DNA of 64,000 nucleotides, from assembly GCF_018363915.1 (NCBI RefSeq), contig NZ_JAGZMY010000007.1; one strand, given 5' to 3'. The notes under the pieces are model-generated. The model made no database searches. It was not told the origin of the DNA and worked only from the letters and a program-made list of their open reading frames with translations. The stretch comes from Anaerococcus vaginalis (GTDB lineage Bacteria > Bacillota > Clostridia > Tissierellales > Peptoniphilaceae). The position numbers and the translations under genes were made by a program. Each line of letters opens with the position of its first letter. Positions within the stretch are counted from its first letter, which is position 1. Shown piece after piece: positions 12,387 to 17,171 of the stretch.

Positions 12387-13334
12387 ATGAGTAATAGTAG
12401 TTTAGTTGATTTAGTTAGTTACAGTCCAAACCATAGTGGAAGAAGAACACATCCTATAACCAAGATAGCTATACACCATACAGCAGGAGTTTTAACTGCA
12501 GCTGGTATTGGTAATGTATTTAAATCTAGGAGTAGGCAAGCTTCTTGTAATTATGGGATTGGAAATGATAACAAGATAGTTCTAGTAGTAGATGAAGCAA
12601 ATAGGGCATGGACAACATCAAATGCATGGTGTGATAATAGGGCAGTAACAATCGAAGTTTCAAACTGTCAATACGGTGGTAATTGGCTTGTTTCAGATAG
12701 GGTTTTGAATACTTTAATAGATTTAGTTGCGGATATATGCAGAAGAAACGGGATAAAAAACTGCACTTATACGGGCGGAACAGACGGGGTTTTACAAATG
12801 CATAAGTGGTATGCACAGACTTCTTGTCCTGGACCTTATCTTGCTAGTAAATTTACTTATATTGCCCAAGAAGTAAATAAGAGATTAAGAGGAGAAAAAA
12901 ATACAAGCTCATCTAATAATCTTTATAGGGTTAGAAAATCTTGGGGAGATAGTAAAAGTCAAAAGGGTGCTTTTAAAAATCTTAATAATGCAATAGATTT
13001 GGCAAAGAAACATAAATATAAGGTTTTTGATAGTAATGGTAAACAAGTTTACCCAGAAGTAAAAAAAGCAAGTACAAGCTCTAACGGAGGCGTATTTATT
13101 AAGAACGAAAAATGGACAGGTATAACTCTAGATGTTTGTAATGTTAGGAGTGCTCCTAATACTAATGCTCCTATTGTTGCACAATATCAAAAAAATGAAC
13201 CAATACATTACGACCAAGTCTGGGAGGGTGATGGTTATAGATGGATTTCCTACATTGGAGCAAATTCTGGACAAAGAAGATATGTTGCTTGCAGGAGATT
13301 AAGTGGGGATACGACACCTTGGATTAGATTTTAA
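12387..13334 (+). CDS. endolysin: N-acetylmuramoyl-L-alanine amidase (Amidase_2/PGRP) with C-terminal SH3b
   Basis: The IAIHHTAG zinc-amidase motif is present. The C-terminal stretch NVRSAPNT..GDGYRWISY is a bacterial SH3 fold signature. RBS AAGGAGG. Confidence 0.85.
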   Translation: MSNSSLVDLVSYSPNHSGRRTHPITKIAIHHTAGVLTAAGIGNVFKSRSRQASCNYGIGNDNKIVLVVDEANRAWTTSNAWCDNRAVTIEVSNCQYGGNWLVSDRVLNTLIDLVADICRRNGIKNCTYTGGTDGVLQMHKWYAQTSCPGPYLASKFTYIAQEVNKRLRGEKNTSSSNNLYRVRKSWGDSKSQKGAFKNLNNAIDLAKKHKYKVFDSNGKQVYPEVKKASTSSNGGVFIKNEKWTGITLDVCNVRSAPNTNAPIVAQYQKNEPIHYDQVWEGDGYRWISYIGANSGQRRYVACRRLSGDTTPWIRF

Positions 13335-14072: not shown

Positions 14073-14441
14073 ATGGATAATTTAAAAATATTTGTAATCG
14101 GATTATTTGCTGTTGTTGCTGTATATTTTATAATTAGGGGATTAAAGCTAACTAAAGAATTCGAAAAAAATTTGAAGAGTGAAGAAGCTAAATTTGCTTT
14201 AGAACGATTAAATAAGATTCTTGAAAGAGCTGTAGGAGCAGCAAACCAAGTTATAGTTAATAATGCAAAAGAAGATGGGACTTTCACACCATCTTATGGT
14301 AAAAAAGTAAAAGATGAGGTTTTTGGAACAGTTTTAAAAGTCCTTGGAGATGAGGGAAAAAATCTTTTAAATGAAGCCTTGGGAGATTTAGATGAATATA
14401 TCTCAAACGGTATAGAAGATGAAGTTGATAAACGAAAATAG
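14073..14441 (+). CDS. small membrane protein (N-terminal TM then helical domain); holin-like or superinfection-exclusion candidate
   Basis: RBS AAAAGGAG. N-terminal TM segment (IFVIGLFAVVAVYFII). Followed by two strong terminators. Confidence 0.35.
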   Translation: MDNLKIFVIGLFAVVAVYFIIRGLKLTKEFEKNLKSEEAKFALERLNKILERAVGAANQVIVNNAKEDGTFTPSYGKKVKDEVFGTVLKVLGDEGKNLLNEALGDLDEYISNGIEDEVDKRK

Positions 14442-14492
14442 TATAATGTAAATGATAGGTAGACAATATATAGTGTTACCGAATTTCTACAC

Positions 14493-14527
14493 AGACCACT
14501 GGCTTTTGGCTGGTGGTCTTTTTTTAT
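14493..14527 (+). terminator. rho-independent terminator T1
   Basis: AGACCAC...GTGGTCT stem followed by TTTTTTTATTT. Confidence 0.55.
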
Positions 14528-14561
14528 TTGCGGTATAATAATTATAAAGGCAATACCATTA

Positions 14562-14595
14562 AGCTACCTAATAACTAGGTGGCTTTTTTTATTTT
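14562..14595 (+). terminator. rho-independent terminator T2
   Basis: AGCTACCTA-ATAAC-TAGGTGGCT (9-bp stem with one G-U pair) followed by TTTTTTTATTTT. Confidence 0.6.
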
Positions 14596-14705
14596 AAAAC
14601 TTAAAGTTATTTTTAAAGGAATACCATTGGTATACTTAATCATTTAATTAGCTTATAGGCTAAAATATAAATGATTGGCTTGTTTACAAGCCTTTAAACT
14701 AAACT

Positions 14706-14734
14706 ATATAAAAAAGGACTGAATCAACAGTCCC
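14706..14734 (-). terminator. terminator of the minus-strand cargo operon (downstream of gene A)
   Basis: On the minus strand GGGACTG-TTGATT-CAGTCC is followed by TTTTTTATATAG. Confidence 0.5.
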
Positions 14735-14760
14735 TTTATTGTATAATTTTTATGTTGTAA

Positions 14761-15192
14761 TTATTTCAAATTGTTTTCCAAAGCTCCCACGACAATATCT
14801 TTCATACTTTCGCCTGTTTTTTCACTTTTATCTTTTAATTTATTATATAAATTTTCTGGTATCAATAAACTAAAGGCAATATTTCCTTCTTCTTCGATTT
14901 CAAATATTTTTTCATAATCGTCGGCATCAAGATTTTCTTCCGCCCATTTCTTTGCCTCATTTATTGTTATAGGTGTTATTTTCTCACTACCAGACCAACT
15001 ACTGCTTCCAGTTTGGACTGCATAGCTTGACGCTGGTCCACCTCCTCCATACATAAAAAACTCTCCCGTTTTCTTTTTATAAAGTTCCTCACATTCGTAT
15101 TGCAAATCGGCTGAATTATATATATTCTCCCATTTTCCAATAAATTCTGCTGTGTCTGTGTCGTATCTTTTACCATTAATTATTTTTTTCAT
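14761..15192 (-). CDS. hypothetical protein with C-terminal ribbon-helix-helix-like DNA-binding segment (cassette gene A)
   Basis: RBS AAGGAGAA. C-terminal IAFSLLIPENLYNKLKDKSEKTGESMKDIVVGALENNL follows a beta-strand/helix/helix pattern. It is the last gene of the minus-strand cargo operon and is followed by a minus-strand terminator. Confidence 0.4.
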   Translation of the reverse strand: MKKIINGKRYDTDTAEFIGKWENIYNSADLQYECEELYKKKTGEFFMYGGGGPASSYAVQTGSSSWSGSEKITPITINEAKKWAEENLDADDYEKIFEIEEEGNIAFSLLIPENLYNKLKDKSEKTGESMKDIVVGALENNLK

Positions 15193-15312
15193 TGTTTTCT
15201 CCTTTTAATATTTTTTTATTTATGCTATAATTTAATTAAGCAATAGCTCAACAAGGTGAAAAGCCTTGCGGATTGAAATATGTTTTTATTTGTGTTACAA
15301 ATACAGGCATAG

Positions 15313-15346
15313 GAGGGGATATTTATTATCCCCTCATTTTTATATT
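15313..15346 (+). terminator. hairpin GAGGGGAT-atttatt-ATCCCCTC with T-run on the plus strand (between cassette genes B and A)
   Basis: 8-bp GC-rich stem. The U-tract is on the plus strand, so it may act as an antisense terminator or as an intra-operon attenuator. Confidence 0.3.
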
Positions 15347-15654
15347 GTTTTTAGATTTTCTTCTAGTAATCTTTTTAAATCTTCATCTTCTTCGTATTTT
15401 GTTTTCATAATTAATTCATCTTTTTTTAAATCTATGTAAGCATTGCTCACTTTATCTTTCATTTTTCTTGCTTTTTTATTGGATACTGATACTCCATTTA
15501 TAAAGGCTTCTTCTATCGAACCTGTGTGTCGATATTTGCAATAGATATTGGCTAATTTTATACCTGCCTTATTTAGATATAATCTATCCATATCTAACAT
15601 AGTCCACCTTTTAGCTCCCATTTTTATTAATTTTTCTATTTTTTCTTGATTCAT
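15340..15654 (-). CDS. hypothetical protein (cassette gene B)
   Basis: 104-aa ORF 20 nt after gene C. There is no obvious SD before the annotated ATG, so the true start may be an internal Met. Confidence 0.3.
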   Translation of the reverse strand: MNQEKIEKLIKMGAKRWTMLDMDRLYLNKAGIKLANIYCKYRHTGSIEEAFINGVSVSNKKARKMKDKVSNAYIDLKKDELIMKTKYEEDEDLKRLLEENLKTI

Positions 15655-15674
15655 AAGATTTTTATTTTTATATT

Positions 15675-15857
15675 TTAACCATATATATCAAATTCATCAT
15701 CTTCGCCATAAACTGTATACCAAGTTAAATTATAATGTTGTCCACTATTTCCGTTGTTTTCAACTTCTCTTACATATTCATTTTCTTCTATTTCTTCAAA
15801 TTCTTTTTGTGTAACTTCTTTACCTTCGTATCTGTTTTTTAATTCTTCAAATGTCAT
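15675..15857 (-). CDS. very acidic 60-aa protein (cassette gene C), DNA-mimic-like
   Basis: RBS AAGGAGA. About 17 Asp/Glu against 6 Lys/Arg. It is the first gene downstream of promoter-operator copy P1. Confidence 0.4.
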   Translation of the reverse strand: MTFEELKNRYEGKEVTQKEFEEIEENEYVREVENNGNSGQHYNLTWYTVYGEDDEFDIYG

Positions 15858-15905
15858 TTTTAATCTCCTTTTTATTTTTTTATTGTGTATCTCTTTGTTA
15901 ATGTT

Positions 15906-15957
15906 ATAATACTACCTTATTTATACGCTGTCAATATATATAGTGTAAATATTTACA
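15906..15957 (-). promoter_or_regulatory. promoter-operator copy P1: TTGACA(15934-15929)-17-TATTAT(15911-15906) with upstream palindrome TGTAAATATTTACA (15944-15957)
   Basis: Consensus -35, 17-nt spacer and near-consensus -10 read on the minus strand, preceded by a perfect 14-bp palindrome. Confidence 0.55.
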
Positions 15958-15993
15958 ATAATTTGTTAATGAGGGGTAGGATTTTTCCTACCC

Positions 15994-16314
15994 TTATATT
16001 AATTCTAAATCTACAAATCCGTAAAAGTTATCATCAAAGTAGTCTGTAATTACATCGCTTTTATCATAATTGTAAGAATCTAATAGATCAGTTATATTCT
16101 TTTTTATTTCTTGATTTCGCTTGTTATATTCTTTAACTTTTATTTTAATAAAAATTGCATTATATTCACTTTTTACACTTATTTTTATGCCTTTATATAA
16201 TTTTCTTGCTTGTTTTTTTACTTCTCTTGCTATCTCTTTTGTTGTTAGGTTTGGATTGTAATTGTTTCCTATAATGTTGTTGTAGTTGTATGTTGTTTCT
16301 ATCATTTTCCCCAC
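15994..16314 (-). CDS. hypothetical protein with basic N-terminus and acidic C-terminus (cassette gene D)
   Basis: Begins 3 nt after the gene E stop. The start is GTG at 16314 or, more likely, ATG at 16305 after GGGTGGGG. Confidence 0.4.
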   Translation of the reverse strand: MGKMIETTYNYNNIIGNNYNPNLTTKEIAREVKKQARKLYKGIKISVKSEYNAIFIKIKVKEYNKRNQEIKKNITDLLDSYNYDKSDVITDYFDDNFYGFVDLELI

Positions 16315-16317
16315 CCT

Positions 16318-16581
16318 TTATTTATAAATTTTAATATTGTTTACTTCTATTTTGTTTATTTGGTTTATTGTAAATTCTATTCCTGTCAAACTTTCTTGTT
16401 TTTCTGTACATTCTTCAAAAAAATCTTTTATATTTTCATCTTCGTTTTCGTTAAAATTTCCTAAGTCGTCTAAAATCCAGCTAAAGTTTTCTTCTGCTTT
16501 TTCGTTCCAATTTTTTATTAATTCTTCTTCTGTTTTTCCGTTTGCGTATGTGTAATCATTGTAATTATCGTAAATTTTCAT
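16318..16581 (-). CDS. very acidic 87-aa protein (cassette gene E), DNA-mimic-like
   Basis: RBS AAGGAG. About 23 Asp/Glu against 9 Lys and no Arg. It is the first gene downstream of promoter-operator copy P2. Confidence 0.4.
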   Translation of the reverse strand: MKIYDNYNDYTYANGKTEEELIKNWNEKAEENFSWILDDLGNFNENEDENIKDFFEECTEKQESLTGIEFTINQINKIEVNNIKIYK

Positions 16582-16702
16582 TTCCTACTCCTTATAATTG
16601 TTTTTTGTTATATAAAGTAGTAAGATACTAAATAAGGGTATTTTAAAAGAGTTAATTTTTTAATACTCCTATAAAGTGGCGGTCAAACTACTTTATTTGT
16701 TA

Positions 16703-16740
16703 GATAGTCGGTATTGGTAGTACTGGCTATCTTTTTTATT
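16703..16740 (+). terminator. orphan plus-strand terminator in presumed attR region
   Basis: GATAGTCGGTA-ttggtag-TACTGGCTATC (11-bp stem with two G-U pairs) followed by TTTTTTATTT. Confidence 0.5.
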
Positions 16741-16756
16741 TCCTTTTGTTAATTAT

Positions 16757-16808
16757 ATAATACCATGATATATTTACATTGTCAATATAAACGATGTAAA
16801 TATTTATA
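16757..16808 (-). promoter_or_regulatory. promoter-operator copy P2: TTGACA(16785-16780)-17-TATTAT(16762-16757) with upstream TGTAAATATTTATA (16795-16808)
   Basis: About 50-bp block nearly identical to P1 (TGTCAATATA..A..TGTAAATATTTAnAATAA), placed upstream of gene E. Confidence 0.55.
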
Positions 16809-16881
16809 ATAAGTCAATTTATATAAAAATTTAAATAAACCTAAAATCTAAAATATAAAAAATATTACATTAAATTTTAAT

Positions 16882-16903
16882 GTGGGTAACGTGTGGGCAA
16901 CGT
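16882..16903 (+). repeat. tandem 11-mer GTGGGTAACGT GTGGGCAACGT, with additional AACGTTGC/GTTGC copies downstream to about 16960
   Basis: Direct reading of the sequence. The repeat is GC-rich relative to the surrounding AT-rich intergenic DNA. Confidence 0.4.
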
Positions 16904-17024
16904 ATATATCATTTTATCTTTTTTTGCGGTCGTAAACGTTGCTATTTAAGGCGTTGCTGTAATTATTAATATTGCTTACTTCCCACCACCAGCACCATTA
17001 ATTTTTTTATTTTTTTCATATTTA

Positions 17025-17053
17025 AGCTATGCAAAATTGCATAGCTTTTTTTG
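17025..17053 (+). terminator. orphan plus-strand terminator upstream of polA
   Basis: AGCTATGCA-AAAT-TGCATAGCT (9-bp perfect stem) followed by TTTTTTT. Confidence 0.6.
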
Positions 17054-17171
17054 ATGCCTTTTTAAAAAATTTTTTTTAAAATTTTAATTTTCAAATTTTT
17101 AATTAGCAAATTTTTCTACTTATTTTTTTGTGAAAATTAAAATGTGTTATACTTATAGAAAGGAGAAATAT

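What the first reader, a model, noticed from the sequence alone, without database searches (positions are those of the whole stretch)
15906..16808. Duplicated 50-bp promoter-operator block (TTGACA-17-TATTAT plus TGTAAATATTTACA palindrome) 850 bp apart
Positions 15921-15960 and 16770-16810 share the block TGTCAATATA..A..TGTAAATATTTA.AATAA. Read on the minus strand, each gives a consensus -35, an exact 17-nt spacer and a TATTAT -10. Each copy also carries a 14-bp palindrome (perfect in P1, one mismatch in P2) 9-10 bp upstream of the -35. The -10 regions also match over TATAATAC.A. This looks like one dimeric regulator controlling two paralogous two-gene units, E-D and C-B.
Basis: seen in the sequence. 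Interest (0 to 1): 0.6.

Follow-up and report, generated by a model that had tools for sequence, protein, structure and literature searches.

The report
Duplicated prophage cargo-operon promoter
The two repeated blocks are two diverged copies of the strong promoter that heads the accessory-gene operon at the end of an Anaerococcus prophage.

Summary
Window 15883-15961 and 16734-16812 are a 79-nt direct repeat (75% identity). On the minus strand both read TTGACA-17-TATTAT, and each has the 14-bp palindrome 9 bp upstream of the -35 (perfect in P1, 13/14 in P2).

The blocks belong to a conserved promoter family with at least 18 distinct copies. The family heads the post-lysis cargo operon of Anaerococcus and related Firmicutes prophages. 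Where the full operon is visible, it ends in gene A (14761-15192), a protein with a C-terminal ribbon-helix-helix (RHH) domain.

The window prophage ends near 17030, just before polA. The same two-promoter arrangement is 99.7-100% identical in five other assemblies.

The two gene pairs are not paralogous. The 14-bp palindrome is not conserved as a palindrome: 54% of cells are symmetric, below the shuffled mean. The phage's CI-type operators are GTAC-N5-GTAC, a different sequence.

What is conserved is a near-palindrome spanning the -35, TATATTGACA-A-TGTAAATATA, with compensatory changes in two lineages.

My best reading is a strong sigma-A promoter repressed at the -35 by an RHH protein, probably A itself. 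That step is inferred, not shown. The element is a new member of a known kind and of modest interest.

The parts
16734..16812 (-). P2 promoter block. The -35 TTGACA is at 16785-16780, the spacer is 17 nt, and the -10 TATTAT at 16762-16757 is preceded by TGn. The predicted transcription start is near 16750, giving a leader of about 170 nt before gene E.
   Evidence: Homologous promoters are listed.
15883..15961 (-). P1 promoter block. The -35 TTGACA is at 15934-15929, the spacer is 17 nt, and the -10 TATTAT is at 15911-15906. The predicted start is near 15899, giving a leader of about 42 nt before gene C. It is the spacer variant GTATAAATA, also seen in L053, L146 and L161.
16769..16789 (-). 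21-bp near-palindrome TATATTGACA-A-TGTAAATATA spanning the -35 box and the first part of the spacer of P2. This is the candidate primary operator; 9 of the 11 pairs tested are symmetric in P2.
   Evidence: Compensatory variants occur in L163 and L165.
15918..15938 (-). The same position in P1: TATATTGACA-G-CGTATAAATAA. The right half is degenerate, and about 6 of 11 positions are symmetric by my own count from the sequence.
   Evidence: plus direct reading of the sequence.
15944..15957 (.). Its promoter-proximal half, ATATTTAC, is the conserved third half-site. Its distal half, TGTAAATAT, is a direct copy of the spacer box 32 nt downstream.
16795..16808 (.). It has the same composite nature; the upstream box TATAAATAT lies 30 nt from the spacer box TGTAAATAT.
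16318..16581 (-). Gene E: 87 aa, acidic, no family assignment. It is the first gene after P2.
15994..16305 (-). Gene D: 103 aa from the ATG, as called in other assemblies. It has a weak LPD29 match (E = 1.1e-5, just under the Pfam cut-off). It is absent from all other relatives retrieved.
15972..15995 (.). GC-rich hairpin after D. Its T-run is on the plus strand only, so termination of the P2 transcript here is uncertain.
15675..15857 (-). Gene C: 60 aa, acidic. It is the first gene after P1, and it also directly follows a P1-type promoter in L053 and L146.
15340..15654 (-). Gene B: 104 aa, no family assignment.
14761..15192 (-). Gene A: 143 aa, with an N-terminal beta-rich domain of unknown function and a C-terminal RHH domain. 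It is the last gene of the operon in every related locus that shows it, and it is the candidate autoregulator.
14716..14733 (-). Hairpin GGACTG...CAGTCC followed by TTTTTTAT on the minus strand. This is the terminator of the cargo operon.
16881..17030 (.). Phage attachment-site arm and attR junction. Tandem arm-type repeats TGTGGGYAACG lie at 16881-16902. Identity to the circular or attP form (L148) ends near 17030, inside the hairpin before polA.

Best explanation
**What it is.** P1 and P2 are two diverged alleles (75% identical) of one conserved sigma-A (sigma-70-type) promoter. This promoter heads the accessory (cargo or moron) operon lying between the lysis genes and attR in a family of Anaerococcus temperate phages.

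**Transcription.** Both promoters fire leftward. P2 drives E-D, and possibly reads through. P1 drives C-B-A. Transcription ends at the terminator after A.

**Origin of the duplication.** It is not a local tandem duplication. It reflects modular assembly: a P2-headed unit (E-D) sits upstream of a complete P1-C-B-A unit of a type that exists on its own in other phages.

**Regulation (inferred, not shown).** A ribbon-helix-helix repressor, most likely protein A encoded by the operon itself, binds the near-palindrome TATATTGACA-A-TGTAAATATA, which contains the -35 hexamer. Binding would be helped by a further half-site, ATATTTAC, 15 bp upstream. That would occlude sigma binding and give negative autoregulation, as in Arc, Mnt or CopG.
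For: **Promoter.**
- Both copies match the consensus at 11/12 with an exact 17-nt spacer.
- 18 distinct homologous copies were found in Anaerococcus vaginalis, A. rubeinfantis, A. mediterraneensis, A. hydrogenalis, Aerococcus christensenii and metagenomes. TTGACA, positions 1-3 and 6 of the -10 hexamer, and GTA in the spacer are invariant.
- Each copy lies upstream of a cargo set that ends in an A homologue wherever the contig allows.

**Modular origin.**
- L004 has E-C-B-A without D or P1.
- L053 has P1-type-C-A, and L146 has P1-type-C.
- Many relatives have the promoter directly in front of A.
- The window arrangement is 99.7-100% identical in 5 assemblies.

**Operator.**
- The 11-pair palindrome across the -35 is symmetric in 73% of cells, against 68% in shuffles (0/500 reach it) and 25-51% when the partner is slid.
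- Four pairs change on both sides (11/500 shuffles reach that).
- L163 reads AACTATTGACAATGTAAATAGTT, with both flanks changed in step.
- Half-sites WATATTKAC occur 13 times in 64 kb, and 6 of these are in the two blocks.

**Regulator.**
- RHH families are hit by many A-family members: RHH_3 in 10/33, RHH_1 in 8/33 (best 6e-6), CopG_antitoxin best 1.8e-6.
- A profile of the family weakly matches MatP, CopG and EndoAI.
- The AlphaFold model (pLDDT 90) ends in a helix pair preceded by an unstructured segment, which fits beta-alpha-alpha.
- One homologue carries HTH_3 (1.7e-13) in place of the RHH, a swap of DNA-binding domain.

**Established knowledge.** From my own knowledge, the Arc operator lies between the -35 and -10 of Pant, and the CopG operator overlaps the -35 of Pcr.
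Against: - No transcription or binding data exist for these elements.
- The covariation rests on two independent lineages (L163/L164 and L165). The tool's own note says related sequences can beat shuffles without any constraint.
- The window's P1 has a degenerate right half, about 6/11 symmetric.
- L163 and L165 keep the ATGTAAA box although their predicted RHH beta-strands differ from the Anaerococcus group. That weakens the link between box and protein A.
- The beta-strand NIAFSLLIP has few of the polar residues typical of base-contacting RHH strands.
- The Peptococcus niger homologue's promoter lacks the box.
- The AT-rich flanks are partly self-complementary by composition alone.
- Fold search found no significant structural match for A.
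Confidence: 0.5

Rival explanations
1. First reader's model. The 14-bp palindrome TGTAAATATTTACA at -58 to -45 is the operator of one dimeric regulator (gene A or the phage repressor), which co-controls two paralogous two-gene units.
For: - The palindrome is perfect in P1 and 13/14 in P2, and these are the only two such sites in 64 kb.
- A related inverted repeat, GTAAA-ATA-TTTAC, lies in the cI-cro intergenic region of the same phage (L148 1776-1788).
- In the window, L001, L145, L147 and L146, the distal half is a good direct copy of the spacer box about 30 nt away. Roughly 10 of 25 distant cargo promoters show the same layout.
Against: - The symmetry is not conserved: 54% of cells, below the shuffled mean, and 487/500 shuffles reach it.
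- The distal half differs in most relatives.
- The gene units are not paralogous.
- The CI-type operators are GTAC-N5-GTAC and are absent from P1 and P2.
- The immunity-region repeat has a different spacing.
- The site does not overlap the core promoter.
Confidence: 0.12
2. Unregulated moron promoters. Both blocks are simply strong constitutive promoters with an AT-rich UP-like element at -40 to -60. The conserved flanking bases reflect promoter strength and shared ancestry, and no dedicated regulator exists.
For: - The hexamers and spacing are near consensus.
- The -58 to -45 stretch, AAATATTTA, resembles the distal UP subsite (AWWWWWTTTTT, from my own knowledge).
- Distant family members carry plain A-tracts at the same place.
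- Other strong promoters of the same phages share GTATTATATAATTAACAAA but lack the boxes (L100, L103, L130), so part of the block is a generic promoter context.
- Morons are typically expressed from their own promoter in the lysogen (my own knowledge).
Against: - ATGTAAA directly after the -35 is retained where protein A has diverged to 47-58% identity and the other non-coding positions have changed.
- Paired changes keep the dyad.
- An RHH or HTH DNA-binding protein is always encoded in the operon.
Confidence: 0.3
3. The repeat matters mainly as a recombination junction. It would be a conserved sequence at which cargo modules are exchanged between phages by homologous recombination, and the second copy is the scar of such an exchange. 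This concerns how the duplication arose and is compatible with either regulatory model.
For: - The same block precedes different gene sets: A alone; C-A; C-B-A; E-...; and 145 aa-177 aa-A.
- The cargo module occurs in both orientations relative to the lysis genes.
- Homology of P1 to the family stops abruptly near -62, at the D hairpin.
Against: - It does not explain the base-level conservation pattern or the dyad.
- No recombinase or target-site features are seen.
- The two copies are only 75% identical, which is poor for recent homologous exchange.
Confidence: 0.08

Closest known systems
Arc/Mnt (phage P22 Pant) and CopG (plasmid pMV158 Pcr) ribbon-helix-helix autorepression
   Same: A small operon encodes an RHH protein. 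A dyad-symmetric site of about 21 bp overlaps the -35 and spacer of a strong promoter. Extra sites on the same face of the helix would allow cooperative binding.
   Different: Here the RHH is the C-terminal domain of a 143-aa protein whose N-terminal domain is unknown. It is the last gene of the operon, not the first. Binding has not been shown. Sequence similarity to Arc or CopG is marginal (E = 0.02 to 0.2 for the window protein and the family profile).
Prophage morons (lambdoid and HK97-type; Hendrix and colleagues' definition)
   Same: These are accessory genes near the prophage end with their own promoter and terminator. They vary in presence among close relatives and are transcribed independently of the late operon.
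   Different: This is a multi-gene operon with a conserved terminal regulator-like gene and a conserved promoter allele family. The internal hairpins carry T-runs only on the antisense strand.
CI/Cro-type palindromic operators of temperate phages
   Same: A dyad-symmetric AT-rich site lies near a phage promoter.
   Different: This phage's own CI-type operators are GTAC-N5-GTAC, present four times around cI-cro. The 14-bp palindrome differs in half-site and spacing and lies upstream of the core promoter.
UP elements of strong sigma-70 / sigma-A promoters
   Same: An AT-rich tract lies at -40 to -60, upstream of a consensus -35.
   Different: The conserved part is a specific word, ATATTTAC, that mirrors the spacer box rather than a generic A/T tract.

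Membership tests
Sigma-70 / sigma-A promoter | -35 TTGACA, a 16-18 bp spacer and a TATAAT-like -10 | tested here: met
   Both copies read TTGACA-17-TATTAT (11/12). They are the top two hits in 13-18 kb and two of four such sites in 64 kb.
Sigma-70 / sigma-A promoter | Positioned upstream of a gene with a ribosome-binding site, and conserved in homologous loci | tested here: met
   AAGGAG lies before C and E. 18 distinct homologous copies sit upstream of cargo genes.
Sigma-70 / sigma-A promoter | A mapped transcription start | not testable with these tools
   No transcriptome data were available.
   14/14 in P1 and 13/14 in P2.
   54% of cells are symmetric against 57% in shuffles, with no covariation.
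   L148 has four copies of GTAC-N5-GTAC in and next to the cI-cro intergenic region and none in P1 or P2. Only one loosely similar repeat, with different spacing, was found.
RHH-autoregulated operon (Arc / Mnt / CopG type) | The operon encodes an RHH DNA-binding protein | tested here: met
   For the window protein alone the match is weak: RHH_3 E = 0.02 and PHROG Arc-like 3e-4. At family level it is clear: RHH_1 6e-6, CopG_antitoxin 1.8e-6, and an HTH_3 swap in L202.
RHH-autoregulated operon (Arc / Mnt / CopG type) | Symmetric or repeated operator overlapping the core promoter | tested here: inconclusive
   The -35-centred palindrome is 73% symmetric, no shuffle reaches it (0/500), and paired changes occur in two lineages. 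P1 is degenerate and independent events are few.
RHH-autoregulated operon (Arc / Mnt / CopG type) | The protein binds the site and represses | not testable with these tools
   This needs EMSA or footprinting and reporter assays.
Moron | Own promoter and terminator | tested here: inconclusive
   Both promoters are present, and there is a strong terminator after A (14716-14733). The hairpin after D has no U-tract on the sense strand.
Moron | Present or absent among otherwise similar phages | tested here: met
   D and P1 are absent from L004, and cargo content differs in every relative.
Paralogous gene pairs (E-D and C-B) | Detectable sequence similarity between the pairs | tested here: not met
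   BLASTP gives E = 12 for E against C and 3.6 for D against B.

The most novel reading that the evidence does not exclude
Protein A may represent a large, uncharacterised family: about 990 cluster representatives were found, with an unknown N-terminal domain plus a swappable RHH or HTH DNA-binding domain. On this reading the family acts as the dedicated autoregulator of post-lysis cargo operons in many Firmicutes prophages. It would recognise a box in the promoter spacer plus a second copy about 30 nt upstream, with box sequence diverging between phage lineages. If so, cargo promoters and their control could be predicted from sequence across these phages.
Probability: 0.3. Interest if true: 0.5.

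Novelty: new member of a known kind. Interest (0 to 1): 0.3.

Why it matters
The result shows how accessory genes at the end of Anaerococcus prophages are probably transcribed: from a conserved, portable promoter that different phages reuse for different cargo. It also corrects the proposed operator to an element that comparative data support. It points to a widespread, unstudied DNA-binding protein family always linked to these operons, a concrete target for EMSA and reporter work. The mechanism proposed is a familiar one, so the value lies in annotation and hypothesis rather than in principle.

Tried and rejected
- **BLAST of 14400-17100.** blastn against the phage and plasmid collections found no match.
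- **Structured RNA or tRNA.** Rfam at E <= 1 gave only a chance miRNA hit in 13-18 kb. ARAGORN found no tRNA or tmRNA at the ...CCACCAGCACCA sequence near 16990, which turned out to be phage attP-arm DNA.
- **Gene function.** PADLOC, NCBIfam and PHROGs gave no function for B, C or E. D has only a sub-threshold LPD29 match.
- **Structure of A.** Foldseek of the A model against PDB found nothing significant; the best hit was Pur-alpha at E = 0.57.
- **CI as the binder of the palindrome.** Rejected, because the CI-type operators are GTAC-N5-GTAC.
- **TTGGCTTAT / ATAAGCCAA repeats as integrase arm sites.** Rejected, because the true arm-type repeats are TGTGGGYAACG on both sides of the core.
- **Simple inversion of the cargo module between phages.** Rejected, because the flanking X segment keeps its orientation and changes side.
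- **ATGTAAA box across the whole A family.** It is confined to relatives at roughly 47% identity or above and is absent from most distant ones, which carry other spacer boxes.
- **Exact-protein lookup of D from the GTG start.** It failed because the true start is the ATG at 16305.
- **Literature.** Two searches found nothing on these elements.

Full report
**1. Observation**

Window 15883-15961 and 16734-16812 form a 79-nt direct repeat with 75% identity and an 851-nt offset. It is the best repeat in the region: 46/60 matches, against a mean of 37.8, sd 1.2 and maximum 42 in 100 Markov simulations.

On the minus strand both copies read TTGACA, 17 nt, TATTAT. These are the two best promoter matches between 13 and 18 kb. 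They are two of only four such sites on both strands of the 64 kb. P2 also has a TGn extended -10.

The palindrome TGTAAATATTTACA lies 9 bp upstream of each -35, perfect at 15944-15957 and 13/14 at 16795-16808. No other site in the window has 1 mismatch or fewer.

**2. Genomic context**

The region is the right end of a prophage in a low-GC genome (26-34% GC). On the plus strand the order is:
- amidase endolysin (12387-13334);
- HicA and HicB;
- a holin-like gene (14073-14441);
- two terminators.

Five minus-strand genes follow: A, B, C, D and E. Then come phage attachment-arm DNA and host polA, from about 17172.

A 39.8-kb contig carrying the identical gene E (L148) shows the circular or attP form. 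Its order is cro-like gene, CI-like repressor (HTH_3 + Peptidase_S24), integrase, attP, P2, E, D, C, B, A. Comparing L148 with the window puts the phage-host junction (attR) near 17030, inside the hairpin before polA. Tandem arm-type repeats TGTGGGYAACG lie at 16881-16902.

The host genus is Anaerococcus. The closest loci are in A. vaginalis and A. rubeinfantis genomes, and homologues of protein A are annotated in A. hydrogenalis, A. vaginalis and A. mediterraneensis. The 2361-nt segment from the A terminator to attR is 99.7-100% identical in five independent assemblies, so the double-promoter arrangement is a stable feature of this phage.

**3. The blocks belong to a promoter family**

Pattern scans of viral, genome and metagenome collections, plus look-ups of A homologues, recovered 18 distinct homologous promoters. 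All have TTGACA-17-TAT(T/A)(A/C)T, with GTA at spacer positions 3-5.

Each sits in front of a variable set of small genes that ends, wherever the contig allows, in an A homologue:
- the promoter directly before A (L001, L027/L062, L040, L144, L145, L147, L153);
- promoter-C-A (L053);
- promoter-145 aa-177 aa-A (L003, L025);
- E-C-B-A (L004).

The module occurs in both orientations relative to the lysis genes.

P1 is a spacer variant (GTATAAATA, followed by ATTAACAAAGAGAT). The variant recurs in L053, L146 and L161, and in three of its four lineages it directly precedes gene C. L004 joins E directly to C and lacks D, the hairpin and P1. D was found in no other relative.

The two copies are therefore two alleles brought together by module assembly. 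A P2-E-D unit sits in front of a complete P1-C-B-A unit.

The gene pairs are not paralogous: BLASTP gives E = 12 and 3.6. A 145-aa protein of L003 resembles E at its N-terminus and C at its C-terminus.

**4. The proposed operator**

On the 18-promoter alignment (A3) the 14-bp palindrome keeps its symmetry in only 54% of cells. That is below the shuffled mean of 57% (487/500 shuffles reach it), and there is no covariation.

The distal half reads TGTAAAT, TATAAAT, TTTAAAT, TTGAGAT, TTATTAT or TTATAAT in different phages. The proximal ATATTTAC is conserved.

The same phage's cI-cro region contains three GTAC-N5-GTAC dyads, with a fourth nearby (L148 1488, 1731, 1745, 1795). This is the usual layout of CI/Cro operators, and none occurs in P1 or P2. 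One loosely similar repeat, GTAAA-ATA-TTTAC, lies in that region (L148 1776-1788). Its spacing differs, and I could not decide whether it means anything.

**5. What is conserved instead**

The -35 hexamer is the left half of a near-palindrome: TATATTGACA-A-TGTAAATATA, at window 16769-16789 in P2.

Across the family, 73% of cells in 11 pairs are symmetric. The shuffled mean is 68% (0/500 reach the observed value), and slid controls give 25-51%. Four pairs change on both sides (11/500).

In L163/L164, where A is 48% identical, the site reads AACTATTGACAATGTAAATAGTT, with both flanks changed in step. L165 carries two copies of GCTTGACAATGTAAAAC 551 nt apart.

The box ATGTAAA after the -35 persists in Aerococcus christensenii and A. 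mediterraneensis, where A is 57-58% identical. The upstream ATATTTAC mirrors the spacer GTAAATAT (83% of cells). It also repeats the -35 half-site ATATTGAC 15 bp upstream.

Half-sites WATATTKAC number 13 in 64 kb, and six of them are in the two blocks.

In more distant A-family loci the spacer box has a different sequence. In about 10 of 25 promoters it is repeated directly 27-33 nt upstream at p <= 0.05. The window promoters show the same layout, with an offset of 30 nt in P2 and 32 nt in P1.

These tests rest on few independent lineages and on related sequences, so I treat the operator as probable, not established.

**6. Candidate regulator**

Gene A is the one gene linked to the promoter in every locus that shows the operon end.
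- The window protein alone gives weak RHH signals: RHH_3 E = 0.02 and PHROG Arc-like 3e-4.
- Family members give clear ones: RHH_1 6e-6, CopG_antitoxin 1.8e-6, and RHH_3 in 10 of 33.
- A profile of the family weakly matches MatP, CopG and EndoAI.
- The AlphaFold model (pLDDT 90) has a beta-rich N-terminal domain and a C-terminal helix pair preceded by a lower-confidence segment. This is expected for an RHH that needs a partner chain.
- A homologue in L202 has an HTH_3 domain (1.7e-13) in place of the RHH. That argues the C-terminal module's job is DNA binding.

Points against:
- Fold search was uninformative.
- L163 and L165 keep the box with different beta-strand sequences.
- The Peptococcus niger promoter lacks the box.

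**7. Mechanism and rivals**

Best-supported reading (confidence 0.5 overall):
- Two strong sigma-A promoters drive the cargo genes leftward, P2 for E-D and P1 for C-B-A, ending at the terminator after A (14716-14733). This part is well supported.
- An RHH protein, probably A, binds the -35-centred dyad plus the upstream half-site and represses, giving autoregulation like Arc, Mnt or CopG. This part is inferred.
- The hairpin after D lacks a sense-strand U-tract, so P2 transcripts may read through P1.

Rivals:
- Unregulated promoters with a UP-like AT tract (0.3).
- A recombination-junction role, which concerns origin rather than function (0.08).

**8. Comparison, novelty and score**

The element works like an RHH-autoregulated promoter and sits in a moron-like accessory locus. 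Both are known kinds. Membership in the promoter class is met on every sequence criterion. Membership in the class of palindromic repressor operators fails on conservation and on match to the immunity operators.

No literature on Anaerococcus phage regulation or on this protein family was found.

I rate it a new member of a known kind, interest 0.3. The most novel reading not excluded is that the A family is a widespread dedicated regulator of prophage cargo operons (probability about 0.3, interest 0.5 if true).

Noticed in passing
window 15232-15345 (plus strand); also L003 5826-5942, L004 786-900, L148 6238-6352: The B-A intergenic region is highly conserved. On the strand antisense to the operon it carries two hairpins, then a GC-rich hairpin with a T-run. 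A TGCTATAAT extended -10-like motif lies on the plus strand at about 15222-15230, read by eye from the sequence. It could be a roughly 100-nt antisense RNA or a cis element. No covariation was seen in four sequences.
   Followed up: partly
window 16575-16750 (minus strand): The roughly 170-nt leader between P2 and gene E folds more stably than shuffles (-28.4 kcal/mol, z = -3.3). It contains a 14-pair hairpin (16702-16732) whose T-run is on the plus strand. There is no Rfam match.
   Followed up: partly
window 15313-15335, 15972-15995, 16702-16732: All three hairpins inside the minus-strand cargo operon have their T-runs on the plus strand. They look like terminators of antisense transcription, such as read-through from the late genes, rather than of the operon itself.
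   Followed up: no
window 16881-17030; L148 4490-4720: This is the prophage attR. Identity to the attP form ends near 17030, inside the terminator hairpin upstream of polA. Tandem arm-type repeats TGTGGGYAACG occur on both arms of attP.
   Followed up: yes
window 14604-14688; L001 560-700: A segment carrying repeated ATAAGCCAA / TTGGCTTAT motifs (five copies in L001) keeps its orientation but lies on opposite sides of the cargo module in different phages. One copy of the motif also precedes every P2-type promoter (AAATTGGYTTATTT). Its function is unknown, and it is not the integrase arm site.
   Followed up: partly
L148 1484-2441: This is the immunity region of the same phage: a CI-like repressor (HTH_3 + Peptidase_S24) divergent from a cro-like HTH gene, with four GTAC-N5-GTAC dyads.
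   Followed up: yes
L165 2369-2400 and 2920-2951: A distant phage (A 47% identical) also has its cargo promoter duplicated. The two copies are nearly identical and 551 nt apart, and the first precedes a 50-aa NikA-like RHH gene.
   Followed up: no
L003 4798-5235: A 145-aa cargo protein matches E over its first 25 residues (E = 2e-4) and C over its last 60 (E = 9e-7). This suggests E and C are fragments or modules of a longer protein type.
   Followed up: partly
L100, L103, L130 (other promoters of related phages): Other strong promoters in these phages share GTATTATATAATTAACAAA. Each has its own short box in the spacer, repeated upstream; L103 has TTAAAACGTGT, for example.
   Followed up: no
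L006 5992-7532: A shorter homologue of A's N-terminal domain (85 aa, no RHH) lies directly upstream of a 422-aa ORF that I judged reverse-transcriptase-like from its sequence motifs alone, without a family search. The surrounding genes resemble the leading region of a conjugative element, again judged by eye.
   Followed up: no
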